64,000 nucleotides of DNA from the NCBI RefSeq assembly GCF_018977255.1, contig NW_024704742.1:8682001-8746000 (forward strand), given 5' to 3'. Position 1 is the stretch's first letter. Every line of letters starts with the position of its first letter. The notes beneath the pieces are model-generated. The model saw only the letters and a list, made by a program, of their open reading frames with translations. It had not been told where the DNA came from and searched no databases. Source of the DNA: Callorhinchus milii. Taxonomy: Eukaryota. The position numbers were made by a program, and so were the translations under genes. Below are positions 755-46,000 of the stretch, one piece after another.

Positions 755-1508
755 GGACTCATATGAATTGGATAATAAAGCCGAGGACTTACAAAGTTTT
801 CCAAAGAAGTTCCCTGACTGGAAAGCAAGGATGAATCAACATGTGATATTACTCCAAGAGATCGCAAATAATATTGACGAGTGTCACAAAGGTGCCACCA
901 TTGCCAATATTACAGGGTCTTCTGTAGGTGTTGTTGGAGGGGCTCTAACTATTGGAGGTCTAATTGCTGCCCCTTTCACATTGGGTACATCATTGATACT
1001 CACGGGTGTGGGAGTTGGGGTGGGTGTAGCTGGTGGTCTCACTAACATCACAGCTAGTGCAGTGGATTCTGCTTCACAATCCAATAAACAAAAAAGAGTT
1101 AATGAAATCATGGAAAAGTATAAAAAGGACAGTGAGGAAATGGCAGATTGCTTCAATAAATTCCGCAATGCAGTTGATTTCTATGAGAATTGCAGTGACA
1201 AATTGGAAAAAGAAGCTTTCATTGGTGTGGCTGAGGTCTTTGCAAAAAGCTTGGGTGTTTTTCCTGCAGTTGCTTCAGCCGTGACCAAACAGTCCTTAAG
1301 AACATTCAAGGCGGTTTCTGGCGTTCTGTCAGGACTCTTTGTTGCGTGGGATATCTACTCTATCACAGTGGATTCCATTGACCTCAGCAAAGGAGCCGAG
1401 ACAGAAATGGCTAAACAGATACGAGATGTGGCTCGAAAGATAAAGGATGAGGTAATGAAGTATGAAGAGGTTTATGAAGCTTTAAGTCAAACTGTAAAGC
1501 AAATCTAG
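755..1508 (+). CDS. APOL: Apolipoprotein L-like protein, copy 1, terminal coding exon (upstream exons lie outside the window)
   Basis: Open frame with APOL hallmarks: LQEIANNIDECHKGATIANITGSSVGVVGGALTIGGLIAAPFTLGTSL, then LFVAWDIYSI...DLSKGAETEMAKQIR. The acceptor ttgtatttataacag|G at 754/755 is phase 2, so the ORF-track TTG start is not the real start. Family-level call only. Confidence 0.9.
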
Positions 1509-1972
1509 CCCAATGTGCAGGACTCGTGGCTAACTTTGACTTCAGTGCCTGTCACAAACCCCATTTGGGCAGATTGTTAGTGGATTGTATTCTTGTTGTT
1601 TATGAACCTGCCCATCTTTAAACAATATATTAAATTGGTTACTCTTTCTGTGATCTATTTCATGTATTTATTTCCAATTCTATTGACTGTTCAGTCTAAC
1701 CTGATTGGATTGCCTATGTCTTGCATGTAATGCATGTCAGCTTGGCTCAGTTGGTAAAACTATCTGAGTCTGAAGGCTTGTAGGCACCGTTGAAGAGGAA
1801 GATCTTCAGGCGCGCTCTGAAGATGAGGAAGAAAGGGGCAAAGGGGAGGGATAGACGAGTGTGTTCCAGAGCTTCACAGCCCAGTGTCTGAAAGCACAGC
1901 TGGAACAGAGCACAAGTGGGACAGGCAGGAGGCTGGAGCGAGTCAAGCAGAGGCAGTGGGTAGTGGATTGGC

Positions 1973-2092
1973 GAGTAGGCAGCTCGGAGAGTAGGCAGCT
2001 CGGAGAGTAGGCAGCTCGGAGAGTAGGCAGCTCGGAGAGTAGGCAGCTCGGAGAGTAGGCAGCTCGGAGAGTGAGTAAGCAGCTCGGAGAGT
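1973..2092. repeat. 16-bp minisatellite (GAGTAGGCAGCTCGGA) x7
   Basis: Six perfect copies and one variant copy are directly visible. Confidence 0.95.
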
Positions 2093-2789
2093 AAGGAGGC
2101 CAGAGAGGTTGGAAGGTTGGCAGTATATATTCATGCTGTAGTCTACCCTGCACTCCAATATAAAGACTGATGATTCTGAGCGACAGCTGCCTCTCCTGTA
2201 CTAGCGGATTCTGTGCTGCTCTGATTCCCCAGATGGTGCCATGGTGACAGCTCTCACCTCAACCTGTTGCACTTCTCTATTCTGAGGGGCATCTCCACAG
2301 GCATCTCCTACACCTGGGCCTGAGCTCCCATTCATGTGTGATCCAGAGAGTGAGGGGCAGGAGATGCCATGACCCTGGGGGTGGGGGTGGGTGGGGCATT
2401 GAACAGCTCAATCCAATCCTCACCTAAAGTTCACACACACTCTCACAGCTTCCAGAGTGGGTGTCAGGATTATATGTCAGCCTGGCTTACAGTAGCAATC
2501 TTGCCTACGAGTCACAAGGTTATGGGTTCAATCCATAGGTCAGGAATTTAGAAATCACACAGTCTAGACCGTGGGGTCCAAACGTTTGCCGAGGGTCAGA
2601 TGCTCTATTTGAGAAATGACCATGGACCACACAAGCAACATTTTTGAGCTTCCCTCCTGAAACATAACAACATTTACACAGCACCTTTTTCACATCAGGA
2701 ATACATCTCAAATGGCTTGACGCTGTTATGTTCTCACCACTCAGTGTGTAGAAACCCTTTATTTTCAGCTCAATGTTTTTAACAAATAT

Positions 2790-4500
2790 ATATTTATTTG
2801 GTATGTAAAAAATATATTAAGTTTTCCTCATCATAATAATAAAAACACACCCATGATAGAACAAAGAAAACATTCGCAAACCAAAAACATTTGAAACCCG
2901 TGACAAAGTGCAAACGGTCCCTTCCTTTTGCTCCCCAAGCAATTACACACACAATACATTCCTTTGCCTCGTGTAAAAAAAAATCCATAATCGGAAAAAA
3001 CACATCTACGCCAAAATCAATATAGTGCCCCTTGTGTCAGCCAGTACTGTCTCCCACTCTCCTCAAGCGGAGGGACCAGGGTCTCCTCACTCCTCTATTC
3101 TGCCGCCTTTACTTACAGGGAGCAGTTAGACTTTGGGCTATTCCCAGCTCTGCCTTCCTTCACTGAACAAAGGCAGTTCAAAATTCCCAATCCACTGCTC
3201 CCCCCTTTATGGGGAAGGATCCCATCACATCTTGGAACACTCTCTGGTTACAGGTTGAGTGTCTTTCTCTACAATCCTTCCCTGAGCACAGGTTCCCTGT
3301 CCTGTGGGTAGTTGGCACTGATGCGCACACCCATCATGGAGCTGCCCAAGCCTCGGTCAGTCCCCATCTGGCCTTAACCTCTGCCAAACCCAGCTTCAGC
3401 GCATCCCTCGTGACATACTCCCTGACTCTCACCTGCACAAGGTCTGTAGCAGGTGTTGAAGAATACAGACATGTGATGCATTGAGATATATGTAACGGAT
3501 TGGATAATCAATGCCAACTAACTATGCAAAGAAGGGATTGAAAAGAGAATAAGGCGATTGGTCAGTGAATGTGATTGGATAAGTTAATGATGGAGTGAAA
3601 TGTACGAGCTTGGGCACATGCGCAAGCTGTGAAAGAAATAAAGAAGTGAGTCGGAATGCTGGCTATAAAAGAAGGAAAAGAAGAGTAGGGTGCAGTCCAA
3701 AATGGAGCAAGGAGAATCAGCAGAAGACAGAGGAAAACACATGAAAAGCTGATGAAAGCACAAATAACAAGGAACCTTGATGGAAGATTGAAAGTATGAT
3801 TAACTAAAGGAATTGTGTACCATTTTCTGGACTCATGGTGATATTGTTTATTGCTGTTGATAATATTCCACTTAACATAAACACACATCAATTGAATTGT
3901 TGTTGAATAAACTTGGTTTAACAGACTTTACCTAAAAGGAATGCTGAGTGTATTTATTTATATCTAACACAGGCCTTGACCAACACCTCTCCATGCCTGA
4001 AGACCATCCGGTTTTGGCAGTCCCAAAGGGCTTCCTTCACCGAGTTGATGACCCTCCAGGCACATTCGATATCGGTCTCTCTGTGTGTTGCTGGGAAGAG
4101 GCCGCACAGCACAAGGTGCTGTGACAGCAGAATTCCTGGGACGAAACACACATCTCCATGAGGGCAGACAGAAAATCCCTCGAGGCTGTGCTGTTGATAG
4201 TACAGGTCAGCATTAAAGGACCTTGTGATCCTCTGCAGCCGTCCTGTTCTGCACACTCCGAGCCGTTCCTGTTCTTCAATTCAGAGATCACAGAGTTGCC
4301 TCTGTTCACTTTCTGGAAAAGAAACTCAAACACTTCTCGTCCTCCTCTATTGTGCGAATTCTGGAGCAAAAAATCACCTTGGAGACCTCAGAGCCCAGGA
4401 ACGAGGCTTGCAGGCCTCTCACCTCCTCGAGTTCTTCCCTAACCTCTTCAACTTGCTGTTGCTGGACTGGGCTGGAGTCTGGAGTCCGGCCTTGTGAAGT
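2790..4500 (-). mobile_element. Tx1/L1-clade LINE 3' fragment, internally deleted and interrupted by a solo LTR
   Basis: Minus-strand peptide LCGLFPATHRETDIECAWRVINSVKEALWDCQNRMVF...RDALKLG...KARWG matches a Tx1-type ORF2 C-terminus. It is similar to 23020-23260 and 25050-25390. Confidence 0.8.
3454..3969 (+). mobile_element. Solo LTR (516 bp)
   Basis: TGTT...AACA termini, a perfect 4-bp target-site duplication CAGG (3450-3453 and 3970-3973), TATAAAA at ~3665 and AATAAA at ~3906. The flanking LINE sequence is contiguous once the insert is removed. Confidence 0.85.
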
Positions 4501-5745: not shown

Positions 5746-7682
5746 AATAATAACCCTTGCATTTGATATTCAATACAATACAAAATTACGTTCGTATAGT
5801 GCCTTTCACGTCAGGAGGATGTACCAAGGTGCTGGACAGTCAGTGATTTGGACCCGAGCAGGGATTCGGGATCGGGGAAGGTGGAGGGCAAGGAAGGTAG
5901 TAGACTGAAGCTACGGTCTAAGAGGAAGATCATCAGATGTGCCTTGAAGGAGGCAAGGGAGGAAGCGAGGTGAAGGGAATGTGGAATAGAATTCTAAAGG
6001 ATGGGGACAGAAAGGCTGAAGGCATGACCGCCGATGGTGGAGGGGGTCTGGCGGGGCACGTTGAGCAGGCCACAGCCTGCTGAGTGGATGGAGCGGACAG
6101 GTATGGGGTCAGAAGATCACTGAGGTAGGAAGGAGCAAGAGCTCTGAAGGTGAGGATGAGGATTTTGAACTCTGTGATATGGGCTTAGAAAAATGGCAAA
6201 AAAATCTTTAGGAGGGTAAAGAGAGAACATGAAAAATGACAATTGAACAATATTAAATGATACATTTTTAAAGATGCTTATTAATGTACTAGAAGTAAAA
6301 GGAAACCTCAGGAGGGGGCTGGCCACCCAGGGACAGAAGTGGTAAATAGGTTGTGGATAAGGTGAAGATGGCGGAGCTGTCTCAGTGTTTGTGTCTCAGT
6401 TTTCACTGAGGAGAGGGGTATTCCCAAAATAGAGCACAGAGGGGAATGAGGAACAGCCACTTGTGATAAATATTAAAGAAAACTTTATTTAAAAAAAAGT
6501 TAGGGAATTAAAAATTGATGAATCACAGGATTCATCCCGGTTTGTAGAGCGAAACCAGAGAGGAGATTGTGCAGACTTTTGGTAATTTTTAAGCATTTTC
6601 AGTCTGGTCGGTTGGAGGGTGAGAGACGATTGCAGGGTGGCAGAGGATTAGAGAGTGGTAGAGGTGGCGCCTCCGGATAAGAAGGGGCCAGGGATAAGCC
6701 AGGGCTCTACAGGCCAGTGATCCTGATGTCAGTTTTGGGTAAATGTTTTGAGGTGGTAACAACATTAACAACAAAATTACATTTGTAAAGCACCTTCCAT
6801 ATCGGGAGGATGTCCCAAGGTGTTAAACAGTTAAGGAACAGGACCAAAGCGTGGGGGGAACAGGGTTGGGGTGAGGGAGGGCAGAGAGGTAGGAGGATGG
6901 CTGAAGGTACCATTGAAAAGGACGATCTTGAGCTGTGCCTTGAAGGAGGCAAGGGAGGGAGCGAGGCAAAGGGTTTGTGGGATGGAATTCCAAAGGCAGG
7001 GGCAGAGAGGCTGAAAGCCCGGCTGCCAAGAGTAGGGCAGGTCGGGCGGGGGACATGGAACAGGCCGGAGCCGCTAAACGGAAGGAGCGGACAAGTTGAC
7101 AGCAAGTTAGCAGATCAGAGAGGTAAGAGGGGGCAAGTCATTGGATTGCCTTGAAAGGGAGGATGAGGAATAAGGGAATAGATTAGCGATTACTTAGATA
7201 GACATGAGTTAACTTGAGACAGTCAGCATAGATTTGTGAATGGCAGATTGCATTTGACCAATTTCTAGAATACTTTGATGTAATGAGTGCAAACGTAGAT
7301 AAATGCATTGTCTTGAGATGTCCTACCAAGTGAAAGGCGCTATACAAATGTGATTTGTTGTTGTTGTGTATTTGGATTGTCAAAAGGCATTTGATAAGGT
7401 CCTATATGGGAGATGGGTGGAAAGCTCAGGGCGCACAAATAGAGGGAATTGTGTGGTTTGGAATAGAAAGGTGGTTAAAAGACAGCAAGCAGAGAGAGTG
7501 AGAATAAAAGGATGTTTCCTGGTTGGTGGCAGGTAATTAATGGGGCGCCAATTTCTTTCACTTTTACGTTAACTGCACAATCAGCCTTGGGTCTCAGGAA
7601 TACAAAAATAAAGCAGGTGGAACAGGAAAAAGGTGGGGCAATAAATGAAGGTGTGACCACTGATATTCTCATAAATGTTTGA

Positions 7683-8000
7683 CTAAGCAATAATTTGAGA
7701 TGTTATTGGTGATTTAGAATCGGGGTTAGTGCAGCCTTGATTACTGTGACACCATTTATGTTGCTTTTTCTTATTACCATGGCCAGCTACCTGGTACATT
7801 GATGAGCAGGCTTTATCAATTATGAGATACGGTCCAATATATCGAGCGGAGATTGGTCCCTTTGGATTGTATAACTGGATCATAACTGATTGACCCGTCC
7901 CACTCAACTGGTGAGGCATTTCTATTAAAATGCATGGCACTGACTTGTTTAGGTTGAATGATATTAGCTGTTGTGAACAAATTAACCTCTTATTGTTCAT
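7683..8000 (-). mobile_element. LTR-retroelement integrase C-terminal (GPY/F) fragment, copy 1
   Basis: VMIQLYNPKGPISARYIGPYLIIDKACSSMYQV...KWCHSN. Confidence 0.65.
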
Positions 8001-8607
8001 GAGTCAAAGTATTAATTTCTGGATCCGACATATGTGTAATAATAATAATAATCTTTGCATTTGATATAGTGCTTTTCACATCTTCTAGACGTCTCAAAGG
8101 CTTCACAGAATAGACTGCAAAGTGAATTGACTGTATATATTTGTGGCAGCCAACTGCACACAGCAGTGTCCCACAGACAGTCGTGGATTGAAAATGACCG
8201 ATTTATTATTGTTTCTTTTTTCTTGATGATTATTATCAGGCGTGAACCACAACAACAACTTGCATTTATATAGTGCCCTTCAATGCGGGGCAGTGCCCTA
8301 GAGCACTCGCAAGTGAGTGACCTGGGTTCAATTCCTGGCAGGCCGAAACCTTGGGCAAATTTCTTTACACTGCACGCCTGATAATTAAAAATTCCTGAAG
8401 AAACGAAAACAAAAGAAAACTATAATAAATTGGCCACTTCAATCCACGACTGTTTGTGGAACACTGCTGTGTGCAATTGGCTGTCATGTTTTACCAACGA
8501 ATATACAGTCAATTCACTGTACAGTATATTCGGTGAGAACTTTGAGATGTCTAGAAAACATGATAAGGCGCTATATCGAATGTAAGGATTATTGTTATTA
8601 TTATTAA

Positions 8608-10070
8608 ATCAGTGTCCTCAGGTTACCGACCCGCCAGACAGTGGAAATAGTTTCTCCCTGTTCACCCTATCAAATCCCTCATAATTTTGAAAACCTCTAT
8701 TAAGTCTCCTCTTAATCTTCTCTGCTCCAAGCAGAATAGTAATAATAATAAAAAGAACAAAAAGCCTAGCTTCCCTAGCTTTTCCTCATAACTGAAGTCC
8801 CTCATTCCTGGTACAATCCTGGAACCATCCCAATGCCTTGACATCCTTCCTGAAGAGTACGACCCAGAACTGAACACAGTCTCTAACTGAGGCCTAACCA
8901 ATGTTTTATAAAGGTTCATCATAACTTCCTGACTGTTGTATTCTGTGCCCCTATTTATAAGCCTAATATTCCGTATGCTTTTTTACCAGCTTTATCGACC
9001 TGTCCTGCCACCTTCAAAGATTTAATCATATGAAGCTCCAGATCTCTCTGTTTCTACACTCCCTTTAAGATTGTACCATCAGCTTATATGGCCTCTCCTC
9101 ATTCTTCCTCCCAAAATACATCACTTTGCATTTCTCCACATCATACTTCATCTGCCACATGTCTGCCTATTTTACCAGTCTGTCTATGTCCTCTTGCAGT
9201 CTGATACTATCCTCCTCACCATTTACGATTTTTGCTCGCTTAGCATCATCTGCAAACTTGGAAATTGTACTCCTTATACCCAAGTCCAGTCATTTGTATA
9301 GATCAAAAAGCACAGTGGTCCCAATAGTGACCCCTGGGGGACACCACTGCACACTTCCCTCCGGACAGAAAAGTAATCGTTCGCCAAATCTCTGCTTTCT
9401 GTCTCCCAGCCTGTCCTGTATCCATGCTGACACTGTCCCTTTAATACTGTGGGCTTCTATTTTACTTACAAGTCTCGGCAGCACTTAATCAAATGCCTTT
9501 GAAAATCCATATAAACTACATCGACCACACTACCTTCATCCACAATTTGCCTTTAACAAATCCATGTTGGCTGTCCTTTATTAATCCATATTTTTCTAAG
9601 TGAAAATTTATTTTGCCCCAGATTATAGGCTCTAGAAGTTTCCCCACCACTGACGTTAGGCTGACTGGCCTTTTGTTCCTGGGTTTATCCTTCTGGCCCG
9701 TTTTATACAGGGGAGCAACATTTGCAACCCTCCAGTTCCCTGGTACCACCCCGGTGTCCAAGTAGGAGTCAAAGATTGTGGCAGAGCCTCTGCTATTTCC
9801 ACCCTTACTTCCCTCAGTAACCTAGGATGCATCCCGTCTGGACCAGGTGAGCACCGTAAACCTTTTTAGTACCTCCTCTCGGTTTATTCTTATCTAATTT
9901 CTCTATCCTCTCCTCTGATACTGTGGCATTGGCTGCACACTCTTCTTTTGTGAAGACAGATGCAAAGTACTCATTCAGTACATGAGCCATGCCCTCTACA
10001 AGATTTCCTCTTTGTTCCCTATTTGGACCCATCCCACCTTTGACTAACTTTTTAATCTTTATATGCTTAT
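8608..10070 (-). mobile_element. CR1 LINE ORF2 (reverse transcriptase) fragment, decayed
   Basis: WRVANVAPLYK...RPVSLTSVVGKLLE...SQHGFVKG and LYKTLVRPQLE...LEQRRLRGDLIEVFKIM, with frameshifts. Confidence 0.9.
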
Positions 10071-11307
10071 AAAACAACAAAATTACATTTGTAAAGCACC
10101 TTCTGTGTTGGGAGGATGTCTCAAGGTGCTGAACAGTTAGGGATCAGAACCCGAGCATGGGTGTAGCAGGTTAGAGTGAGGAAGGGCAGAGAGGTAGGAG
10201 AGCAGCTGAAGGCACCGTTGAAAAGGAGTATCTTGAGCCATGCCTTGAAGTAGGCAAGAGAGGGAGAAAGCCAAACGGATTGTGGGGTGGATTTCCAAAG
10301 GGTGGGCAGAGAGGCTGAAAGCCCGTCTGCCAATAGTCGGGCAGGTCGGGCGGGAGAGATGGAACAGGCCGGAGCCCGCTCAATGGAGGGAGTGGACAAG
10401 TTGATAGCGAGTTAGCAGATCAGAGAGGTAGAAGGGAGAAAGTGAGGATAAGGAATAAGTGACCATGTTAGTGAATACTTAGATAGACATGAGTTAATTA
10501 GGGACTGTCAGCATGGATTTGTGCAAGGTAGATTGTGTTTGACAAATTTCTGAAATTCTTTGACGCAATCACTGCAAATGAAGATAAAGTCAGTGCGTTG
10601 AGAAGTCCTACCCAGTGAGAGGCGCCATACAAATGTAATTTGTTGTTCTTATTGTGCATTTGGATTGCCAAAATGCATTTGTTAAGGTCCCACATGGGAG
10701 ACTGGTGGGGAAACTCAGGGCTCACATATAGAGGGAAATGTGGTGGTTTGGGATAGAAAGGTGGTTAAAAGACAGCAAGCAGAGAGTGAGAATGAAAGGA
10801 TATTTCCTGGTTGGTGGCAGGTAATTAATGGGGCACGACAGGGGTCTGTACTGAACACTCTCCTTTGTTCCCTATATATTAATGACCTTGACTTAGATAA
10901 AGAGGAATCAAACTTGAGGGGAGAGGTGGAGGCAGAGGCAGGTAATGTTTCAGAGGTGAGTGAAACCTAAATGGATCAGAACACGGAAATGGGTTTTAAC
11001 AGACAGTAGGAGACAAACAAGACACTGAGGTTCTGCACTGGCTCCGCAAAGTGGAGTGTGCATCAATGTAGATTGATGTTTCAGTCCTTTAAGTGTAAAG
11101 ATGCTGATAAGCGGGAGAGTCTCTGTCTTCCTAACATTTAGCTCAAGAATATTAGAGCTCAATAGTCCAACAATTTCTTTCACTTTCACATTTACTGCAC
11201 ACAATCAGCCTTGGGTCTCAGGAATACAAAACCAAAAGCAGGTGGAACAGGAAAACAATGGGGCAATAAATGAAGGTGTGATCACTGATATTCTGGTAAA
11301 TGTTTGA

Positions 11308-22200: not shown

Positions 22201-22211
22201 TGTACTTATAG

Positions 22212-22697
22212 GATGTGATTGACATAATGATCAGAATGACTGGTTATTGTCACTGAGCGAGAGATTGGATTCGCATTATTTTTCTTCATTTCCAAAAGTT
22301 TTTTCAAAACATCATCGACGACAGGGATAGTTTATGCAATGGCAGTGAGCTCAACCAGGTAATTTATCTATTGGAATTAATGAAAATAGAGGAGTGGTGT
22401 AGCGTTGTGGTTAGAGCAGGCGATGGTCTAAGTGTGTGTATGTTGGGGATGGTATGTGTGTGTACGTGTTGGGGACGGAGTCTGTGTGTCTGTGTTGGGG
22501 ATGGTGTCTGTGTGTTGCTGGCAGTTTTTGCTGTGTCTCTGAGTCTCTGTTATGTTGAGTTTTACCCAATCGCGGCTCCTGTGTGACCCACTGTGTTTGC
22601 CAGGAAAGAACCCAAACCTTGACAGCAGTACAGCTGCCACATTGATGCTCTGTTCCTGTCGCTGCCGAGGGGAGAACGCTTTGTTTACCTGCGAGTG
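22212..22697 (+). pseudogene. Orphan APOL-locus upstream exons A' (22212-22358) and B' (22604-22697), both with in-frame stops
   Basis: Paralogous, including splice sites and adjacent intron, to 37167-37012 (-) and 46000-45907 (-). No APOL body exon is visible downstream. Confidence 0.7.
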
Positions 22698-22929
22698 GTG
22701 AGGACGTTCCCTCCTCTGTGGTCACTGGATCAGCCAGGATTGTGTCTGTTCACTCTATTAGTACGAGATGATAACCAATTATTTTTTTTACTACTTATTT
22801 CCCAGATGCAGATCTTGATGGAATGTCTGTGGACCCACAGTTGTTAAGCTGTGAGTCAATAACTATATGGGTGTGGGTGTGTGCTGCTCCAACAAAGCCA
22901 TCTACTTTATCCTCTACTCTTTCACCTTA

Positions 22930-25900
22930 TCCTCTCATATCTTCCCTTCATATAGTCTTATTAAATTCTCTTTCAAATTCTGCTTCAACAGACACTCCTG
23001 GAAATTCGCTTACCAGATGGAAGGTCAAAATTCCCAATCCACTGCTCCCCACTTCACGGGGAGAGACTTATCAACCCGCACACACACACACATCACATCT
23101 TGGGACACTCTCTGGTTACAGGTTGAATGCCTCTCTCTGCAAATCTTCCCTGAGCAGAGGTTCCCTGTCGTGCGGGGAGGTGGCACTGATGCGTGCACCC
23201 ATCATGGAGCTGCCCAAGCCGCGGTCAATCCCCATCTGGCCTTAGCCTCAGCCAAACCCAGGCCACGTCCTGGTATTTGTTGGACAGGGCCGGTGACAAG
23301 ATGTTCTCCCATATCTGGCTGACAGTTGCGGAAGGCTACACGACTATTCCTCACCGCCCTCTCTCGGGCAATGCCTATCAACTGCCAGTCTGCCAGCCCC
23401 ATCCTTCTTAATATCGGGTACAGATACAAGCACAGCATATATACACAGCATGTAGTACAGCGAGCCCACATAGCAGGGCTCCAGGCATATTCTCACGCAG
23501 CAGCTCATAAACGTGGTCATGAGAATCCAGGCTACATCTGGGATGCCTTTATCTCCCTCATCAGGAGTCTTATGCTTCGTGGCTTTGCAGACAGGATCCA
23601 TCCCAGATCTCCAAATCAAGTGAATAATGGTGACTGCACAGGCTCTGTATTTGATCAAAGGCCAGAGATCACCTCGTGTTGGATCACCAGATGTTTCCCA
23701 GTGATTGACAGTGAGCACTGTTGCCTCCTCCCTGGTTTCTTCTTCACTCTCAATATCCGCTCGTCCCAGTCTTTTTTCACACCCCAACAGCTCCGAACCA
23801 GATGCCAGGATTTTGATGTAATCTGACCTGACCACAAATGGTCTATATTTGTGCTCTCGCCATTTGCCGAAATACATCACCTCACTTTTCTGTTGATTTA
23901 CGCTGGTGCTCGAAGCCCATTCAAAATGGTCGCAGAACAGGATCACAATCGATCTTTGATATGAGAAAAGGTCTGTGATATCATCCATACACAGGGACCC
24001 CTTGGCTTGTGAGCCATGGCTGCCCGGGATAGTGACACCTCTGGTGCTCTTGTCCCACCTGATGGCCTGCGCAAAGGGTACGATGCAGCAGACAAACAGG
24101 ATTGGTAAAAAGGGGACACCCCTGCCTCACTCCAGATCTGATGGGAAGAGACTGAGTTTGATGTCAATTTATCATGACTACACTAAAGACGTCTCTGGAG
24201 AGCAGCCGGACCTAATTTAGAATTCCCTCCCCAAAACCCATTTTGGAGAGGACATCAAACATGTGGTCATGAGATACTCTGTCAAACGCTTTCTCCTGAT
24301 CCAGACTGATTAGGGAAGTCTCCACTCTCCTATCCGGCGCATAGGCGATGGTATTCCTAAACAACACAAGGTTGTCAGAGATCCTCTGGCCAGAACCGAG
24401 CAAGTTTGGTCAAGGTGGCGTCCTGTAGCTCAGTGGTTAGAGCACTCGCTTTGCAAGCGAGAGACCTGAGTTCAATTCCAGGCAGAGGGCGAAACCTTGG
24501 GCAAATTTCCTTACTCCACACACCTAATAATAATCCCTCCAAAACCAAAAACAATAATAAATTGGTCATTTTCAATCTACGACTGTTTGTGGGACATTGC
24601 TGTGCGCAATTGGCTGCCGCGTTCGCCCACAAATATACAGTTAATTCACTTTACAGTGTGTTCTGTGAAGCACTTTGGGACGTCCTACCGACGTGAAAAG
24701 CACTATATCAAATGCAAGGATTATTATTATTATTATTAGGTGTATCACCTGCTCCAGCACAGTCTCGATCCTCTCAGAGATCACCTTGGCCAGGATCTTA
24801 TAATCTACATTTAGCAGCAAAATCAACCTCTAGTTTTACATCTCTTCCCTCTCCCGTTTATATATAAATATCAGGGTGATGTTTCGGTTCCTCATGGAGT
24901 TCCCCATGATGCTCTCAGACGCATAATGTTGTACACCTGTAGAACTCGACCAGGAGACCATCACCCCCAGTGATCCTACCGTTCTGAATGGACTTGACAG
25001 TCCTAGTCAATCCATCCATAAAGAGCGGGGGATCTAAATGTTTCCGGCTCCCCTCATCTAGCACCTCCATGAGGCCAGACAGGAAATCCCTGGAGTTCTG
25101 TGCTCTCCATGGGATCTCACAGTACAGGTCGGCAAAAAGGACCTTACGATCCTCTGCACACCCCGAGCTGTTCTCGTCCTTCAATCCAGAGATCACAGAG
25201 CTGTCTGTTCATTTTCTGGAAGAAGAAACTCAAACACTTCTCATTCTGCTCAATCGTGCGGATTCTGCAGCAAAAAATCACCTTGGAGGTCCTGGAGTCA
25301 AGGAACCGGGTTTGCTGGCCTCTCACCTCCTCGAGTTCCTCCCTAACCTCTTCAACTTGCTGTTGCAGGACTGCTCTGGAATCTGGAGTCTGGCCATTTT
25401 CCTATGTTTATCTCTAGCTAACCTCACCCCTTTCCGGACAAAGAATTTCTTAATTCTTATCTTGACCATTTCCCACTATTCAGCTGAGGAGTCGCAGAAA
25501 TCCCTCAAGGATTTCCATTCTCAATATTCTTTGCGCAACTCAACATTTTTTTCCAGGATCATTAATTTCACGTTCAACTTCCACATCCCCCTTACCCATC
25601 CTACAGCTTTCTCAAACTTGCAGGTTAGCCAGCAGGATGTGGTGGTCTATAAAGAACAGCAGTTGGACATCTGCACTCTCTACTTCGCGATCTCTCGAAG
25701 GGAACAGGAAATCGATACGCAAAAAACCGACCCATGTGGCCTGGAAGAAGTCAAAGCTTTTGGTGCGCTGTGTGTGGGGGCCTTAAAGCTGTCACATAAC
25801 TGCACATCCCCCACCAGCTTTAGAAGCTTGGACATGACGCCCAGTTTCCTGTCAGTACAGATGGTTCTTCCATCTGCATCTAAGATGCAATTGAAGTCAC

Positions 25901-28900
25901 CACCTAGAATGACTGATCTGGATGTGACCAACAGCAGAGAAAACATCTGGAGCAGGCCAGACCCTCTTTCCTCTCAGTTGGGTGCACACATTAATTAATC
26001 TGATCGGAGCGACTCTCTACAGCACATCCACCATAAGGAGTCTCCCCCCCACCACCTCGTTACGGGCAGTGATAGTGAGGTTCTTCACCCGCTGCAGGTC
26101 CATCACTCCAGAGCTGCGGCTGCCATTACCCCCAGACGCCACAGAGGGTCCATAGGGAAACCACCACTTAGCCCAGGCTCTGCAGCTGTCGGTGTGCAGT
26201 ATCCTGCCCTCCTGCTGGACCAGAACATTGGGCTTTACCCTGGACAGGTTCTGGAGTCTCACAGCACAACACTTGCTGCTACACACACTGTGCACATTCA
26301 GGGTACCTATCCTCAGTGACATCTTACTGTTACTTACCACCTTTTTCCTGTTCCCTCCTTTTCCAGTTCCCTGCATGATTTTGATCCCAATGGGATTGGG
26401 GGAGCTGGCGGGATCCCCCATCAACAGTCCAACCTGCTCTAGGGTTTCCCATTTGCTTGTGGTCCCCCTATCTCCAGTCCATCCCCAGTTTTAGACCCGA
26501 TGATGTTGGAGGATCTGGCATAATCCTCAACCCTTTGTCTAGATAGTTTTTTTTTACTTTTTCTTGGTTCCCCCATCTCCAGGCTCCTGGATGCTTTTAA
26601 TCCCACTGGTGTTGTGGACCTGGCAGAAACCTCGACAAAATTGTCCTTGTTTTTTTGCTTTTTCCATCTTTCCTTCAAACTTCCACTATCCCTAGTCTCG
26701 GACTCTCTTTCCTTTTTGGGGGATTTCTCCCTCTTCTTTACCCTTCTTCTTTTCCTTGTTTTCCCAGTGCCCCCAGTGCTTCTTTTCCAGACTCCTCTTT
26801 TCCACATCGTTCTTTCTTTGAGGTTGATACGAAGTGACCTCCATCTCTTTCTCGTTGTGTTCCTTCTCGCTTGAGTCAGGATCTTCCCGGAAGATGGTTT
26901 TGCCCAGTGACGACTTCACGTTCCCCGCCCAGGTATCAGTACAACCTCCACCAGCACCACCTGGTGCTGTTGCTTCTTCCCCTCCTGTTGCTGCCCTCGC
27001 TGTGTGACTGCCTGTTTTACCCCCATCACCTGCTGCCTCCCCTGAGATCCGGGTTGACGACTCAGAGGTTGACGACTCAACAGTTTCTATCCACTCCTCC
27101 TTGGGCAAATACAGTGGGCTGTTTCCCTGCACAATTCGCATCTTTTAGCCATAGGACAGTCTTTTGCCAAGTAGCCAAAACATTTGCAGTTCCAACACAC
27201 CGTTTGTGCGCAGGCTGCAAAGTAATGTCCCACCCGTCCGTACCTCAGACACATTCGGGGCTGCCCGAGATATTACAAGGTTCCCTGAAGCTCCCAGTGT
27301 TAAATCGGTGGGTGCGTGTGGGGGGGGGGGGGGGGAGTGGGATGTGAGCAACAGTCCTCTCACCTTTCCAGTGTAGCTTCAGCCACACCTAGTGAGGTGG
27401 TGAAGGAGGGCAGAGTGGCAGGAAAGAGAAGCATTGAAGGAGGGCAGGGAGGACGTGAAGGAGGGCAGAGAGACCATAGTGGTGGGCAGCGATGCCACGA
27501 AAGAGGGCAGAGGCCATGAAGAAGGGCAGAGATGCACGTTTCCGGTGTAATAATAATTATCCTTGAATTTGATATAACGCTTTTCATGTCTTCGAGACGT
27601 TTCAAAGCGCTTCACAGAATATACTGAAAAGTGAATTGACGGTATATTTTTTGTGGGCGAAACGTGGCAGCCAATTGCACTGAGCAGTATCCCACAAACC
27701 TTCGTGGAATGAGTGAACCAATTTTATTATTTTTTTCTTGAAGGATTATTATCAGGCGTGTGGAGTAAGGAAACCACAGGACTCCACATATGGTGTAGCT
27801 TCAGACACACCTCCCAATCAGATGTCCAGACCCCAATCTCATTTATCTCCCTCATGTTGAGCACTGCCTCACAGTGCCTCTCAAAAACAATGAGGTTGTC
27901 GGATTCTGGTACTTGGGGGTCACTCATTCTTAGAAGAACTTTTCTCTCCTCCATTAATCTCTCCTGGAAGAGGGTCCTAATCTCATATGGACGCAGGGTC
28001 TCCTCCCCTTGTTTCCAGAGGGCAATCCATCAAAAAGGAGATTTGTACAAGACACAAGACACACGTTACCTCGTACTTATTCTTTTCTTTATCGGCACAG
28101 ATGTACCTTAACCTTGCCTTAGTTACGCCAGTTTCACATCAGAGCCTTCTTTAACAAGGCCATCCTGTCCACGTATGGCAGCCCCCACCCCTCGACCTTG
28201 ATCAGTATGGAGTCTTTCACGTAAAACTCCTCCTTTCTGTATTTTTCACTGTTTTCTTGTCTCAACCCCAAGACGGGTATGATATGGGGTTGGGGAAGGT
28301 GGATGTGGGCTCCCCTGGCTGGAGGGAGCTGCAGGTTCTTGAGCTTTATCTGCTCCCAGTCCTGCCCCCTCACACCCATCATTTAGCACTTCCTGTCCGG
28401 CCCCCCATGTCCATCCATTCTGTGATAAAGCACCACACTACAACACACCTTTGTCCAACTCCCAGTGTCCTTTTATACTTCCTCTCATTGTTCATTTCAT
28501 TTCCGGGAGGTTGGGCTTGTCAAAATGTTTATTTCCTCAATGTTCCTGTTGGTCGCAGGGATTCTCTCCCATCCACTCTCTCTGGTTTTAGGGATTCAAT
28601 CCCTGGGCTCTCCACTCCACATCCTCGCCCTCACCATCATTGCTCTCCATTCCTGCCCCCGGCTTCCCGCCCTGGCCTCTGTGCCTTCCTTCCCGGTCTC
28701 TCTGCCTTCCTTCCCGGACTCTCTGCCCTCCTTCCCAGCCTCTCAAACCTCCTCCGCCTCCTTGTTGCCCTCCTCCGCCGCCTCTCAACCTCCCGCTGCC
28801 TCTTCTCCTTCTGCAGTTATGTCCACCCTCATGGCCTTCTCAACCTCTGCCATCACTTTTTCACTCCCCACTCTATCCTCTCTGCTGCTTTCCCACTTTC

Positions 28901-30927: not shown

Positions 30928-31681
30928 CTAGATTTGCTCTAGAGTTTGACGTAATTTTTCATAAACCTCTTCATACATCATTACCTCATTCTGTATCTTT
31001 TGAGCCACATTTCGTATCTGTTTAGCAATTTCTGTCTCGGCTCCTTTGCTAAGGTCAATGGAATTCACTGTAATAGTGTAGATATCCCACACAACAAAGA
31101 GTCCTGACAGAACGCCAGAAACCGCCTTGAATGATTGTAATGAGGTTTTGGTTACGGCTGAAACCACTGTAGCAATAACACCTGTGCTTTTTGAAAAGAC
31201 CTCAGTCACACCAATGAAAGTATCCTTTACTAATTTGTCACTGTGATTTTCATAGAAATCAACTGCATTGCGGAATTTATTGAAGCAATCTGCCATTTCC
31301 TCACTGTCCTTTTTATACTCTTCCATGATTTCATTAACTCTTTTTTGTTTATTGGATTGTGAAGCAGAATCCACTGCACTAGCTGTGATGTTAGTGACAC
31401 CACCAGCTACACCCACCCCAACTCCCACACCCGTGAGTATCAATGATGTACCCAAAGTGAAAGGGGCAGCAATTAGTCCCGCAATAGTTAGAGCTCCTCC
31501 AATAACACCTACAGAAGACCCTGTAATATTGGCAATGGAGGCACCTTTGTGACAGTGGTCAATGTTATTTGCGATCTCTTGGAGTAATGTCACGTATCGA
31601 TTCATCCTTGCTTTCCAGTCAGGGAACTTCTTTGGAAAACATTGTAAGTCCTCGGCTATATTGTCCAATTCGTATGAGTCC
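30928..31681 (-). CDS. APOL: Apolipoprotein L-like protein, copy 2, terminal coding exon
   Basis: Intact frame, about 38 differences in 246 aa versus copy 1 (hand count). Same acceptor ttgtatttataacag|G, phase 2. Confidence 0.9.
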
Positions 31682-34201: not shown

Positions 34202-35523
34202 ACACTGAGCTACAGGACTCCACGTTTGTGGGGAAGAAGGAGTCCAGGGGTTGCCTTTGGCCTCCTGGATGATTCATGGAGTAGGTGGACAATTTGGCTG
34301 ACAAAAGGCAGAGCAATAGGTTTAATGCAAGTTGTAGAGGACAGAGGTAACTTCAGGACAGCCACCAGGAAGTTATTCTTGATGCAGAGGGGAATGAATG
34401 ACAGGAACAGGTTACCAGAAATGGAGTTTGTGGCCAGGGCCCTGGACCCATTTAAAAAGCAGCTCAATTCTATAACGATGGATGTTTTTGCGAGACGAGA
34501 TCGGATGGACCAAAAGATATTCTTCAGCCAGACAAAATTTTGTGAACTTGTGATAGTGGGTTGGTCTGTGAATGCACACAGCCCTGACCGACTCTTCCTC
34601 TTTCCCGCACTGAAACAAAGCCGACTTACAATCATAGAATTATACAGCACACAAGGAGGCTATCAGGCCCATCATGTTCATGCCGGCTCTTTGGAAGACC
34701 TGACCAAATTAATCCCACTCCCCCCACGCTCCCAATAACCCTGCAAATTGTCCTCCCCAAATATCTATCTACTTCTCTCTGGAAAGTTGTTATCAAATTG
34801 ATTTCCACCACCCTTACAGGCAGTGCATTCCAGGTCCAAACAACTTGCTGTGTTCTTTTGGCAACTATTTTAGATCAGTGTCTTCTGGTCACCAACACAC
34901 CCACCAATGCGAAACAGTATCTCCCTGTTCACTCTATCGCATTTCCTCATAAATTTGAACACCTCTAATTAATGTGGGGTAGAAAGGACAGTTAAGAGTC
35001 AAACAAGATGTCAAGGTTCCAAACTGGATCAGTAAGGTGGATGGTACATGTTTGGATGGTGAACAAGCATGGGTCCAGGGAAGGTGTTTTTGAGAATAGG
35101 GGTGATGATGGCTGTTTTCCAGAGAGTGGGAACAGTGCCAGTGGACAGAGAGAGGTTGATGATATTTATGAATAGAGGGGCAAGGAGGTGGAACTCGGAC
35201 ATAAAGAGAGGGGCAGGGATGGGGTTGAGGGACAGGTGGTGGACTTCATTTTAGTCATGATGGAGCTGAGAAAAAAGGGGCTACCAGGGTTGATAGTGTG
35301 GCAAGAAGGATGGGTAGGGGCCAAAGTGTGAGGAGGAGGTGGAGGGACGGTGGCAGTAGAGAGGGAAGAGGCAGCCGAGTGGATCCCAAAGGTGGTTTGG
35401 GACGCAAGGCTTTTGCATCTTCTCACATTTGGAGTTGGAATAATGAACTAATCAGATTGAGCCAGACAATTCATTCACAATATCAGACAGTTTATTCAGC
35501 TGTTGTCTCACATCTGTACATAC

Positions 35524-35548
35524 CTGTCCATGACATCGCTGACTGTAC
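35524..35548 (-). CDS. APOL: APOL copy 2 micro-exon C (25 nt); ATG at 35531 gives MDR|DSYELDN when spliced to 31681
   Basis: tttaacag|GTACAGTCAGCGATGTCATGGACAG|gtatgt. The phase-2 end matches the terminal exon. Paralog at 45791-45768. Confidence 0.7.
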
Positions 35549-37011
35549 CTGTTAAACCAGGGAGAAACAGGAGGCATTATTAGTATCTGGTACTACCTGA
35601 ATGAACAGACACAATCTTGGCTGATACAATGACCACACAGGAAGGAATGTCTTAACAAATTACATTTACACAGCGCCTTTCATGTCGGAAGGACGTCCCA
35701 AGGAGCTGGACAGTCAGGGATATGGACCCAAGCTGGGGAGGGTGGGATAGGAGGGTGACTGAAGATTCAGTTGAAGCAGAGGGTGGAGACATGCCAGTTG
35801 CGAGTCAGTGAACGGTTGGGCCTCCGGAAATTGGGAGACGATAAACCTGAGCGGGAGTCGATCGCAAGGGTGGCAGGCGGGCGAGCGGATCAGCAGAGAA
35901 ACGAACCAGGAAGCAGGCCAGCATTAAGAGCAGGATCTGAGCAGGAGAACTGAGGTTGAAAATCACCTGGCAGGTGAGATAATCTACCCAGTGAATCCCA
36001 GTGCGAGAGTCGAGATCGGTGGGTGAACGGAACCAGCGCAAGACTCAAGTCTGTTGGCTGGACTGCTGTCTAACCAACAAATAACGTTACAAGAGTCACC
36101 CACTCTCTATTCCCTCTGTGCTGTCTCTAGCCAGTGGAGGGCAGGGAGGTTTGGGGTAGGAGTGTGACCAAAGACATTGTCGAAGAGGAGAGTCTTGAGA
36201 TATACCTTGAGGGAGACAAGGGAGGGGGCAAGGCTAAGGACTGTCAGATGAAGTTCCAGAGGGTGGGGGCAGAGAGGCTGAAAGCCTGACCGCCGATGGT
36301 GGGGTGGGCCATGGGAGAACATGTAGCAGGTCGGAGCCTGCTGAGCAGAGGAAGCGGACAGGTCTATTTGGATTCATCAGATCACAGTGGTAGGGAGGAG
36401 CGAGGCCATGGAGGGCTTTGAAGGTGAGGATGAGAATTTAGAGCCCTCCTCTGGCGATTGGGAGCTAGTGGTGCCAAGTGAGGAAGAGGCGATAGGGTCA
36501 CAGAGCCTGGTGCAGGAGAAGACATGAGCTGCAGAATTTTGATTGATCTGCTGGATAGTGGAGGGAAGAGTTGGAAAGCCGGCAAGACAGGCATATAAAA
36601 AAAAGAGGCTTGAGATTTGGGGATAAGGCAGGACAGTGGGATTGATTGAATAGCTTGCTCTGAGAGCCAGTATATGGCCTCCTTCTGTGCTGTAAATTCT
36701 ATGATTCTGTGATTCCTAAACACACTGACTGTATATAAATGTAAGTAGTTGTTCTCTCTGGGATGGAGGAACTGAAGGGAGAGTTTGAGAGTGTTAATGA
36801 AAGTTACAATGAAGAGACAGGATTTTAAGCGAGTGTGAAGGTGGGGAAAGAAGCTCAAGGTGATGGGTTTCAGACAGTGGGGTTGTGTTTGACAGCTCCA
36901 GGCTGTCCCTGATTCAGAGGGATTGCGGGAGGTTGTTATCTTACTTGGTGCAGTAAGAACAGAATTGGAATAGAAAGTTAATATTTCCATCAATTCTAAT
37001 AGATAAATTAC

Positions 37012-37167
37012 CTGGTTTGTAAATCCCTGCCATTGTGTGACCTCTTTCCTGTTGTCAATGATGTTTCTGAACAATCTTTGGAAATGAAGAAACCAATGTG
37101 AATCCAATCTCACCTGATCATCAGTGACACTAACCACAGTCATTCTGATCATGATATCATTCACATC
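37012..37167 (-). other. Putative upstream exon A of APOL copy 2 (156 nt, open frame, phase 0/0)
   Basis: tag|GATGTG...AACCAG|gtaatt encodes DVNDIMIRMTVVSVTDDQVRLDSHWFLHFQRLFRNIIDNRKEVTQWQGFTNQ. Paralog at 22212-22358. Confidence 0.55.
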
Positions 37168-37315
37168 CTATACTTAGTTTTTAAAACAATTTGTAATGTT
37201 TAATGTGTATGTATCTGAGCTGTGTTGCCTACCAAGAAGTTTGCAAGACGTTCCTGGTTCCTATCACCCACTCAAAGAGCTCAAACCCACATTTGTCAAA
37301 AATTAAAATTAAATG

Positions 37316-37600
37316 GAGTCCTGTAGCTCAGTGGTTAGAGCACTCGCTTTGCAAGCGAGAGACCTGAGTTCAATTCCAGGCGAAACTTTGGGCAAGTTTC
37401 CTTACTCCACACAGAGCCTAATAATAATCCCTCCAAAACCAAAAACAATAATAAATTGGTCATTTTCAATCTATGACTGTTTGTGGGACATTGCTGTGCG
37501 CAATTGGCTGCCACGTTCGCCCACAAATATACAGTCAATTCACTTTACAGTGTGTTCTGTGAAGTGCTTTGGGACGTCCTCCCGACGTGAAAAGCGCTGG
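37316..37600 (+). mobile_element. SINE (same family)
   Basis: Head and body near-identical; tail truncated. Confidence 0.9.
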
Positions 37601-37849
37601 ACCACTGCTGTCAAATGAAATGATTATTATTATTATAAAATGATTAAATGTTAAATGTTACACTATCTACACTATCAAAAACCCCTTATAAATTTGAACA
37701 CTACTATTAAATCTCCTCTTATTATTCTCTGCTCTAAGGAGAACAATCCCAGCTTCGCTTGTCTCTCCACATAATTAAAGTCCCTCATCCCTGGTACCAT
37801 TCTGGTAAATCTCCCCTGTACCCCTTCCAAGGCCCTGATATCCTAATGC

Positions 37850-44490: not shown

Positions 44491-44495
44491 TCAGA

Positions 44496-44775
44496 TAATA
44501 ATAATAATAATAATCCTTGCATTTGATATAGCGCTTTTCACGTCAGGAGGACGTCCCAAAGCGCTTCACAGAACACACTGTAAAGTGAATTGACTGTATA
44601 TTTGTGGGCGAACGCGGCAGCCAATTGCACACAGCAATGTCCCACAAACAGTCGTAGATTGAAAATGACCAATTTTATTATTGTTTTTGGTTTTGGAGGG
44701 ATTATTATCAGACGTGTGGAGTAAGGAAACTTGCCCAAGGTTTTGCCCTCTGCCTGGAATTGAGCTCAGGTCTCA
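44496..44775 (-). mobile_element. SINE (same family), 5' truncated
   Basis: Near-identical to 24418-24738. Confidence 0.9.
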
Positions 44776-45060
44776 GATAAGAGCGTTAGAACATCCTCCC
44801 ATAGTGAAAGATGCTGTATAAATGTAAAATGATATTGTATTGCACTTGTGACAGTGAGTGTCAGCCTAACCCTGTTATTATTATATTATTATTGTATTTA
44901 TATTATATTGTTATCAGTAATGTCAGCTTTCTGCAGCAGGAAGCCTGGCTGGTTTAATCTCCTTGTCCCACAGACACTCATGCAAATTAGTAGCCAGACT
45001 GCTGCACATTGATTGATTTATTGAAATCATTCATATCAAATCAAGGATTATTATATTGAT

Positions 45061-46000
45061 TTATTTTTTCTTTTGAAAACATTTATAAACCTCTTCACAT
45101 GCTCGTATCTCATCCTCCATCGTATCAGCTGTTTCTCATATCTGCTTAGCAATTCCTGACTTGTTAAGGCAGTTAAAGGGCGGGAAATTGTCTGCTCCAG
45201 AATAGACATTACAGAGTCTTGACAGGACTCGATAAACCTTCTCTTAATATTTCATCATTAAAGAACAGGTTCACACTGTGGAGCTTCATCAATAGACCTG
45301 ACATTTCTCTGCTGACCTTTTTATATCGTTCTATGATTCTATGAACTCTTTTCAGTTTGTCTGTCTGTGTAACACCCACGTGTCTAGTCACACCATCCCC
45401 AGCTACACCCTTCCTGCCTCCCAGGGCCACAAGCACCAACCTCGTGCTCAGTGAGAAAGGGGCAATGATTATTGCTGTAATGGAGAGTTGCACTCTACCA
45501 CACACAGTAATATTCACTGTGGGGTCTTGTTTAGGATAATTGACGATGTCATCTGCGATCTCTCGCAATCCTCTCACGTGTCCTCTCATCCATTCTCTCC
45601 AGACCGGGAAATAGTTTTCAAAAGTTTCAATTATCTTTTCCAGAACAACTTTGTTCCCTTTCCTGTTAATGAGATAAAAAGCCAATCAGACAGAGCCATG
45701 TGACAACAAGTGATTCATTCACAATATCCGGCAGTGTATTCAGCAGCTGCCTCACATCTGTACGTACCTGTCCCGGTGTCACTGACTGTGTCTGTTGAAT
45801 AAGGGAGAAACAGGAGCCATTATCACTGGTTATTATCTGGTACCAACAGAGTGAACAGACACAATCCTGACTGATACAGTGACCACACAGGAGGGAATGT
45901 CCTCACCACTCGCGGGAAAACAAAGCGTTCTCCCCTCAGCAGCAACAGGAGCAGAGCAGCAATGTGACAGCTCCACCGCTGTCAAGGTTTGGGTTCTTTC
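45061..46000 (-). pseudogene. APOL: APOL-like pseudogene, copy 3: exon B 46000-45907, exon C 45791-45768, terminal exon 45662-45061
   Basis: FPVWREWMRGHVRGLREIADDI...IIAPFSLST...KRVHRIIERYKKVSREM aligns to copies 1/2. A frameshift near 45220 is followed by IAKQI*ETADTMEDEIRACEEVYK (CGA>TGA). Exon C is 24 nt rather than 25 and lacks the ATG. Confidence 0.85.

What the first reader, a model, noticed from the sequence alone, without database searches (positions are those of the whole stretch)
755..46000. Birth-and-death APOL cluster beside ARL9: two intact genes, one pseudogene and one orphan 5' relic in mixed orientation
Seen: four paralogous units (+, +, -, -) within 46 kb, directly downstream of ARL9. 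Known: APOLs are membrane-disrupting innate-immune proteins, and the mammalian cluster lies by MYH9, not ARL9. Inference: this is an independently expanded, lineage-specific APOL array evolving by duplication, inversion and decay.
Basis: partly seen in the sequence, partly recalled or inferred. Interest (0 to 1): 0.7.

Follow-up and report, generated by a model that had tools for sequence, protein, structure and literature searches.

The report
Elephant shark APOL immune gene cluster
This is the end of a cluster of apolipoprotein L immune genes in the elephant shark: two working copies already in public databases, one dead copy and one leftover front piece, showing the ordinary duplication, piece-swapping and decay typical of this family.

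Summary
The window is elephant shark (Callorhinchus milii) DNA. It carries two intact APOL genes (A +, B -; Pfam ApoL about 1e-40; both already RefSeq 'apolipoprotein L3-like'), a true pseudogene (C -), and a 5' relic (D +). The units start 2.7 kb past the ARL9 stop. A, B and a third copy form a recent elephant-shark clade (99/97), so birth and death is real. But older paralogues exist and other sharks and rays also hold several APOLs. APOL shares a contig with ARL9 in 3 of 9 species checked, differs in 4, and 2 are uninformative. The scan already noted two-domain APOL genes 156 and 257 kb upstream in this genome (unchecked), so this is one end of a larger cluster. New here: the units are mosaic. 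Micro-exon 2 pairs A with D and B with C, while the main exon pairs A with B (92% against 66% for C), which needs at least one exon exchange. The proteins keep an uncharged hairpin and the pore aspartate, so they probably act as cytosolic membrane-permeabilising effectors. Immune induction was not shown. A known family behaving as known.

The parts
755..1508 (+). Gene A, terminal (main) coding exon of an intact APOL; its two 5' exons lie left of the window
   Evidence: Pfam ApoL 1.5e-41; equals the tail of XP_007905741.1, one residue from NP_001279577.1; AG acceptor at 753-754
671..1728 (+). Block shared in inverted orientation with 31765-30709 (end of intron 2, main exon, 3' UTR)
   Evidence: blastn 91.7% over 1058 nt; flanks 77 of 84 and 202 of 219
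22207..22358 (+). Relic D, exon 1 homologue; ATG at 22339, 20 coding nt instead of 22, GT donor kept
   Evidence: 150 of 181 nt identical to B exon 1 region; frame test
22552..22777 (+). Relic D, intron 1 block shared with C (and its last 67 nt with B); low-copy, not a genome-wide repeat
   Evidence: 203 of 226 nt like 46052-45827; X7 depth about 60 in this bin against thousands to a million in repeat bins
22806..22850 (+). Relic D, micro-exon 2 of the A type, out of frame
   Evidence: encodes A residues 7-14 exactly in its own frame; stop at codon 11 with 6 of 6 donors
23019..28100 (-). Decayed LINE-like element beginning about 170 nt after D's micro-exon (Tx1-like by recalled features; right end approximate)
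   Evidence: broken ORFs; ZCCHC3 RNA-binding domain hit E 1.7e-4, below Pfam's cut-off, at 27730-28029; 79-80% matches to 3172-3393 and 4151-4491
30928..31681 (-). Gene B, main coding exon (A type)
   Evidence: Pfam ApoL 8.7e-40; 691 of 754 nt like A; contigs with B's own letters
35524..35548 (-). Gene B, 25-nt micro-exon 2 (C type)
   Evidence: AG/GT ends, part of XP_007905740.2; region 35469-35651 is 155 of 182 nt like C
37012..37172 (-). Gene B, exon 1; ATG at 37033, 22 coding nt; 5' end inferred from homology with D
45063..45662 (-). Pseudogene C, main exon: 150 open codons, then stop, frameshift and a second stop; six charged residues in the hairpin region
   Evidence: 389 of 591 nt like B; dS 0.68, dN 0.46 against B
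45768..45791 (-). Pseudogene C, micro-exon 2, 24 nt (one short)
45827..46052 (-). Pseudogene C, intron 1 block; no exon 1 homologue upstream
   Evidence: local-alignment scan found exon 1 only at B and D
48771..61056 (-). ARL9, four coding exons (61056-60913, 55181-54995, 53158-52983, 48944-48771)
   Evidence: 100% to XP_042198454.1; Pfam Arf 7.6e-38

Best explanation
This is the ARL9-proximal end of a larger apolipoprotein L cluster of the elephant shark, evolving by duplication, inversion, exchange of exon modules and decay. Shown: A and B are intact three-exon genes about 8% apart in DNA; C is a dead copy whose main exon is far older than the A-B split; D is a dead 5' half followed by a LINE-like element; micro-exon and main exon give conflicting groupings, so at least one piece was exchanged between paralogues. 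Inferred history: C lived as a divergent gene for most of its history and died late; B combines an A-type main exon with a C-type micro-exon. Inferred function: A and B are 266-residue cytosolic proteins without a signal peptide. A basic amphipathic helix meets a membrane, an uncharged hairpin (residues 62-118) inserts at neutral pH as in human APOL3-5, the helix with Asp215 lines a pH-sensitive cation pore or disrupts the bilayer, and the C-terminal heptad helix oligomerises. The likely job is cell-autonomous defence against intracellular microbes (about 65% for this functional part; none of it assayed).
For: Pfam ApoL for A and B. Exact match of spliced B to RefSeq. A/B/P0006 clade 99/97. 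Lesions in C and D. Mosaic: B-C micro-exon region 155 of 182 against main exon 389 of 591, Fisher p 2.5e-7; A against B 6 of 7 residues in exon 1, 2 of 9 in the micro-exon, 212 of 250 in the main exon. C against B has dN/dS 0.68, and 150 stop-free codons occurred in 1-3% of neutral simulations at 0.3-0.4 changes per site. Hairpin has 0 charged residues of 57 in A and in B; Asp215 is kept in 169 of 179 aligned homologue rows. PMC8358165 (passages seen) links an uncharged hairpin to neutral-pH insertion and D348 to pH gating. Contigs of runs guessed to be RNA carry B's letters (0-1 differences where A would give 8-42) and A's letters (31 of 31 listed); one stops at B's acceptor with 57 letters left over. 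A zebrafish-human study lists APOL1 among ancient interferon-stimulated genes (10.1101/693333, sections 24 and 31 seen).
Against: No function or induction was tested. No ISRE-type match lies near exon 1 of B or D, and the GAS matches fall inside a SINE. The runs laid are only guessed to be RNA. The structure model is poor (pLDDT 56.5, under 50 across the hairpin) and found no fold match. The tree cannot place C: holding it with A, B and P0006 is not rejected (AU p 0.33). The 85% segment was delimited by a local alignment, which inflates the contrast. A's 5' DNA is outside the window. The mapping of Asp215 to APOL1 D348 is by motif and spacing, without the human sequence in hand.
Confidence: 0.8

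Rival explanations
1. One inversion made both oddities: D was a complete A-type gene, its main exon was flipped and captured by the 5' exons of a C-type gene, creating chimeric B and orphaning D.
For: D has the A-type micro-exon but no main exon, and B has an A-type main exon facing D. A-B non-coding flanks differ at 24 of 303 nt (8%), less than B-C (27 of 182) and B-D exon 1 (31 of 181), so the main-exon block looks younger than B's 5' half.
Against: No reciprocal C-type main exon remains on + after D. A and B agree at 6 of 7 exon 1 residues, as a whole-gene duplicate would. Gene conversion gives the same pattern.
Confidence: 0.3
2. B is a whole inverted duplicate of A whose micro-exon region alone was overwritten from the neighbouring C lineage (or main exons were homogenised by conversion); D is an incomplete duplicate or lost its main exon by deletion beside the LINE.
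For: Exon 1 and main exon of B are both A-like, only the micro-exon is not. B and C lie 10 kb apart in the same orientation. LINE-like fragments follow both A and D.
Against: B-C micro-exon divergence (15%) exceeds A-B flank divergence (8%), the wrong order for a transfer after the A-B split. No unusually long identical run between A and B (longest 77 nt, p 0.09). The two LINE matches do not extend into shared flanks.
Confidence: 0.45
3. The APOL cluster beside ARL9 is the ancestral arrangement of cartilaginous fishes, so only the latest copies are lineage-specific.
For: APOL and ARL9 records share a contig length in Mustelus, Narcine and Rhinoraja. Several APOL lineages span sharks, rays and the elephant shark.
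Against: Different contigs in Hemitrygon, Hypanus, Mobula hypostoma and Chiloscyllium plagiosum, which argues against tight linkage. A shared contig of 140-375 Mb is not adjacency.
Confidence: 0.35
4. C is not dead but makes a truncated protein from an internal methionine.
For: 150 open codons with in-frame deletions only, dN/dS 0.59-0.68; splice sites intact.
Against: No exon 1, micro-exon one base short, six charged residues across the hairpin region, loss of the pore-lining and zipper half; ApoL score under the cut-off.
Confidence: 0.08
5. The pattern is an assembly artefact (collapsed or duplicated haplotypes).
For: A 3.7-kb tandem duplication at 96.8% lies at 7549-14958, and the region is repeat-rich.
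Against: A and B differ by 8%, both letter sets occur in contigs of public runs, and X7 carries D's junction. An older annotation numbers ARL9, B and A consecutively (XP_007905739-741).
Confidence: 0.03

Closest known systems
RefSeq/UniProt C. milii apolipoprotein L3-like (NP_001279577.1 / XP_007905741.1 and XP_007905740.2)
   Same: These are genes A and B themselves.
   Different: No protein record for C or D came up in my searches, and I found no paper on the locus.
Human APOL1-6 and mouse Apol6-11 clusters (Pfam PF05461)
   Same: ApoL domain, tandem cluster, independent expansion per lineage (PMC8557400 and PMC12248542, passages seen), uncharged hairpin as in APOL3-6 and a pore aspartate (PMC8358165, passages seen).
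   Different: Neighbour is ARL9, not MYH9 (human gene order recalled). No signal peptide. The shark profile matches only the last helix of the solved APOL1/2 N-terminal domain, whereas a mammalian-type homologue matches about 110 residues of it, so the helical bundle appears absent, as I recall for APOL6.
APOL genes of sharks and rays (P0008, P0042, P0010-P0020, P0043, P0044, P0184, P0189, P0230)
   Same: 40-54% identity for those listed, same hairpin and C-terminal motifs, several genes per genome.
   Different: Most ray proteins carry a long central insert that A and B lack; A, B and P0006 have no one-to-one orthologue.
APOLD1 (Verge)
   Same: Shares the ApoL-type central region (PMC8557400, passages seen).
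   Different: Described as single-copy and highly conserved; the shark genes are multi-copy and fast-evolving. No named APOLD1 was in my tree, so this was not tested directly.

Membership tests
Apolipoprotein L (PF05461) | ApoL domain above Pfam's gathering score | tested here: met
   A 142 bits, B 138 bits against cut-off 25.9. C scores 15.3, under the cut-off.
Apolipoprotein L (PF05461) | Hydrophobic two-helix membrane-insertion hairpin | tested here: met
   Hydropathy peaks over residues 65-119; 0 charged of 57 residues in A and B. Degraded in C.
Apolipoprotein L (PF05461) | Pore-lining aspartate (APOL1 D348) followed by a heptad helix | tested here: met
   Asp215 in A and B, kept in 169 of 179 rows; the acid seven residues on is Asp in A and Asn in B; hydrophobic residues at 234, 238, 241, 245, 252. 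Equivalence to D348/E355 is inferred from motif and spacing.
Apolipoprotein L (PF05461) | Homology to solved APOL1/APOL2 structure | tested here: inconclusive
   Family profile hits APOL2 7lf8 (E 2e-4) and APOL1 7l6k (7e-3) over one helix only; A alone hits neither at E up to 1; Foldseek has no match at E up to 0.001.
Apolipoprotein L (PF05461) | Induction by interferon or inflammation | not testable with these tools
   No stimulated RNA data; motif scan found no ISRE-type site near exon 1 of B or D.
Apolipoprotein L (PF05461) | Membrane permeabilisation or cation conductance | not testable with these tools
   Needs bilayer or killing assays.
Secreted APOL1 type | Signal peptide and acidic residues in the hairpin (E201, E209) | tested here: not met
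   No N-terminal hydrophobic segment in A or B; no acidic residue in the hairpin.
APOLD1 | Groups with the conserved single-copy APOLD1 clade | not tested
   No named APOLD1 sequence came up; all named hits are APOL-like or uncharacterised.
Birth-and-death multigene cluster | Recent lineage-restricted duplicates beside pseudogenes | tested here: met
   A/B/P0006 clade 99/97; C and D disabled.
Birth-and-death multigene cluster | Locus position unique to the lineage | tested here: inconclusive
   Same contig as ARL9 in 3 of 9 species, different in 4, uninformative in 2; adjacency untestable.
ARL9 | Arf domain and best hits to ARL9 | tested here: met
   Pfam Arf 7.6e-38; the named records among the 120 listed hits are ARL9 where a gene name is given.

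The most novel reading that the evidence does not exclude
Gene B is a living chimaeric APOL born by an inversion that handed relic D's main exon to the 5' exons of the older C lineage, and the two surviving copies are now diversifying in the membrane-addressing and pore half (dN/dS 1.0-1.55 over the last 100 codons against 0.26-0.41 before; non-synonymous excess p 5e-5 with equal synonymous rates). That would show exon-module shuffling plus host-pathogen selection on APOL in a holocephalan, in a family that two papers trace only to an amniote APOLD1-like ancestor about 300 million years old.
Probability: 0.25. Interest if true: 0.5.

Novelty: new member of a known kind. Interest (0 to 1): 0.3.

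Why it matters
Modestly. APOL evolution is told almost wholly from mammals. PMC8557400 and PMC12248542 (passages seen) derive the family from an APOLD1-like amniote gene, while a typical clustered APOL with the pore aspartate in a chimaera points to an origin at least at the base of jawed vertebrates; the zebrafish study already implies bony-fish age. A and B are compact natural versions without the N-terminal bundle or signal peptide, and they differ at the predicted second gating acid (Asp against Asn at 222), which makes them a simple pair for testing the minimal pore. Duplication, conversion and decay are what this family is already known to do.

Tried and rejected
No whole genome is held for this window, so A's 5' exons and the rest of the cluster could not be read. 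No RNA holder is listed: none of the 13 runs is on record as RNA. In one search the bin over D's micro-exon had next to no cover in the three runs guessed to be RNA (0, 0.53, 0.01); this is not evidence of silence. C was outside the stretch laid. The joints table was swamped by repeats (15 of 4239 rows shown, none at an APOL splice site), and 32 of about 149,000 pieces were shown. Accession numbers as a proxy for adjacency were rejected: ARL9 and B are neighbours here yet about 3,900 numbers apart in the newer annotation. Near locus tags in Chiloscyllium punctatum (chiPu_0020686 APOL, chiPu_0020689 ARL9) were rejected, since they sit on different scaffolds of 99,087 and 98,928 bp and probably reflect sorting by size. 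FastTree placed C with the long ray-type APOLs at 0.96, but IQ-TREE did not hold this (bootstrap 31-53; open, AU p 0.33). AlphaFold gave pLDDT 56.5 and Foldseek nothing. Weak PDB hits to bacterial pore-forming proteins, haemagglutinin and fusion proteins are taken as likeness of hydrophobic hairpins and coiled coils, not kinship. A test for a recent conversion tract between A and B was not significant (p 0.09). Promoter motif scan: no ISRE-type site. Of 11 repeat-derived ORFs scanned, 1 had a Pfam hit. Eight paper searches listed nothing on this locus; 'Callorhinchus' with 'apolipoprotein L' gave 0 papers; subscription journals and bioRxiv supplements were not searchable, and the gene tables of 10.1101/693333 could bear on fish APOL.
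Full report
Source. The main exon at 755-1508 matches Callorhinchus milii 'apolipoprotein L3-like' at 100%. No whole genome is held, so work outside the window rests on protein databases, public runs and papers.

Observation. Gene A (+) has only its last exon in the window. It equals the last 250 residues of XP_007905741.1, which differs at one residue from NP_001279577.1. Gene B (-) has exons of 22, 25 and 754 coding bases with GT/AG ends and gives exactly XP_007905740.2. Both pass Pfam ApoL at about 1e-40. Unit C (-) is homologous (tblastn 6e-18) but disabled: no exon 1 found, micro-exon 24 instead of 25 bases, stop after 150 codons, a frameshift, a second stop and six charged residues in the hairpin region. 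Unit D (+) has exon 1, an intron block and a micro-exon, is out of frame with 6 of 6 possible donors, and is followed by a decayed LINE-like element. A contig of run X7 spans D's junction with 2 differences in 920 bases.

Expression. None of the 13 listed runs is on record as RNA. I laid 4 of them (X1-X3, guessed RNA, and X7) on 22000-37400. Five contigs from X1, X2 and X3 carry B's own letters in the main exon or 3' UTR, with 0 or 1 difference; for the four I counted, A would give 8 to 42. One X1 contig fits 31579-31680 exactly and has 57 further letters that do not lie there, which is what splicing at B's acceptor would give. An X3 contig has 36 differences, equal to the A/B count for that stretch, and 31 of 31 listed letters are A's. 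Both genes are therefore probably transcribed, with the reservation that the run type is a guess.

Mosaic structure. This was not in the finding. The main exons of A and B are 691 of 754 identical, with flanks at 92%; C's main exon is 389 of 591 identical to B's, with dS 0.68. Yet the micro-exon region of B is 155 of 182 identical to C's, and D's intron block is 203 of 226 identical to C's. D's micro-exon encodes A's residues 7-14 exactly, while A and B share only 2 of 9 residues there. So the micro-exon pairs A with D and B with C, and the main exon pairs A with B. One tree cannot give both (Fisher p 2.5e-7 for the B-C contrast, inflated because a local alignment set the segment's ends). At least one exchange occurred. 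Local conversion and an inversion that gave D's main exon to B both fit, and A's missing 5' DNA is what would separate them. C's dN/dS of 0.59-0.68 and its 150 stop-free codons (1-3% of neutral simulations at 0.3-0.4 changes per site) suggest that it lived long and died late. This is inference.

Selection. Between A and B, dS is 0.115 and dN 0.082. Non-synonymous changes are about 14 of 349 sites in the first 150 codons and 31 of 229 in the last 100 (p 5e-5), with equal synonymous rates (p 0.8). dN/dS of 1.0-1.55 in the C-terminal half fits relaxed or diversifying selection; two sequences cannot tell which.

Lineage specificity. In a 33-row IQ-TREE (chosen from 192 domain rows; isoforms and most distant rows left out), A, B and P0006 form a clade at 99/97 with no shark or ray member. 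P0012, P0197 and C are 35-50% identical to these and to each other and stand apart. C's place is unresolved (AU p 0.33). Hemitrygon, Narcine, Mustelus, Pristiophorus and Leucoraja each have two or more APOL records. Using contig length as a label, APOL and ARL9 share a contig in Mustelus, Narcine and Rhinoraja, differ in Hemitrygon, Hypanus, Mobula hypostoma and Chiloscyllium plagiosum, and cannot be judged in Heptranchias and C. punctatum: 3, 4 and 2 of 9. The word-limited search may have missed copies near ARL9. The best reading is an old linkage group, with tight adjacency unproven outside the elephant shark. P0006 and P0012 lie on the same 139-Mb contig as A, B and ARL9, and earlier scan notes put two-domain APOL genes 156 and 257 kb upstream (not checked). 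Another note puts SRP72 just beyond ARL9, the order I recall for human 4q12, so ARL9 seems to be in its usual place.

Mechanism. A and B have no N-terminal hydrophobic segment. Residues 62-118 hold no charged residue. PMC8358165 (passages seen) reports that APOL3-5, lacking acids in this hairpin, insert at neutral pH, and that D348 governs pH gating and cation selectivity in APOL1-4. The shark Asp215 is kept in 169 of 179 homologue rows; seven residues on, A has Asp and B has Asn, matching the D348-E355 spacing. That mapping is inferred, since the human C-terminal sequence was not in hand. A heptad helix follows (predicted helix 233-265). The family profile matches only the last helix of the solved APOL1/2 N-terminal domain, while a mammalian-type homologue matches the whole domain. 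I infer a compact cytosolic membrane-permeabilising effector of cell-autonomous immunity. A zebrafish study lists APOL1 among ancestral interferon-stimulated genes (10.1101/693333, passages and sections 24 and 31). Induction in the shark is not shown, and no ISRE-type site was found. The AlphaFold model is weak and Foldseek found nothing.

Comparison with print. PMC8557400 and PMC12248542 (passages) describe independent APOL expansions in primates and rodents and trace the family to an APOLD1-like amniote gene. PMC11726835 (passages) describes the helix layout. Eight searches listed no paper on chondrichthyan APOL clusters or an ARL9-APOL link; the library lacks most subscription journals. Smith and Malik 2009 is known to me only as cited in those papers and from recall. 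The MYH9 neighbourhood of the human cluster is recalled.

Verdict. Real, correctly described, and a further example of a known kind of cluster whose intact genes are already annotated. The mosaic history and the fast C-terminal half are the only undescribed points I found. Interest 0.3.

Noticed in passing
window 7549-11170 and 11171-14958: Direct tandem duplication of about 3.7 kb at 96.8% identity made only of repeats, with an older partial unit at 6767-7546; recent duplication or assembly artefact.
   Followed up: partly
window 59560-60910: ARL9 intron 1 begins with a 25-mer minisatellite (32.8 copies, 97% matches) abutting a 10-mer array that starts at the exon 1 donor.
   Followed up: no
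window 61056-60913: ARL9 exon 1 encodes an N-terminal hydrophobic segment, also present in the Mustelus protein; resembles the membrane anchor I recall for ARL10.
   Followed up: no
window 538-652 and 31902-32295: The same 23-24-mer minisatellite sits in intron 2 just before the main exon of both A and B, extending their shared block.
   Followed up: partly
window 24415-24738, 29660-29988, 33882-34203, 37314-37636, 44496-44774: Five young copies (88-96% alike) of one 320-bp SINE-like repeat inside the cluster, in both orientations; possible substrates for the inversion.
   Followed up: no
P0012 (XP_042194187.1), same contig, outside the window: An elephant shark APOL with an N-terminal hydrophobic segment and a lysine/alanine-rich tandem-repeat insert in the middle.
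   Followed up: no
window 35524-35548: B's micro-exon contains an in-frame ATG in good context two codons before the main exon, a possible shorter start.
   Followed up: no
one search hits: The family profile finds 3313 representatives, many of 500-1700 residues with the ApoL region at the C-terminus or repeated; unnamed and not examined.
   Followed up: no
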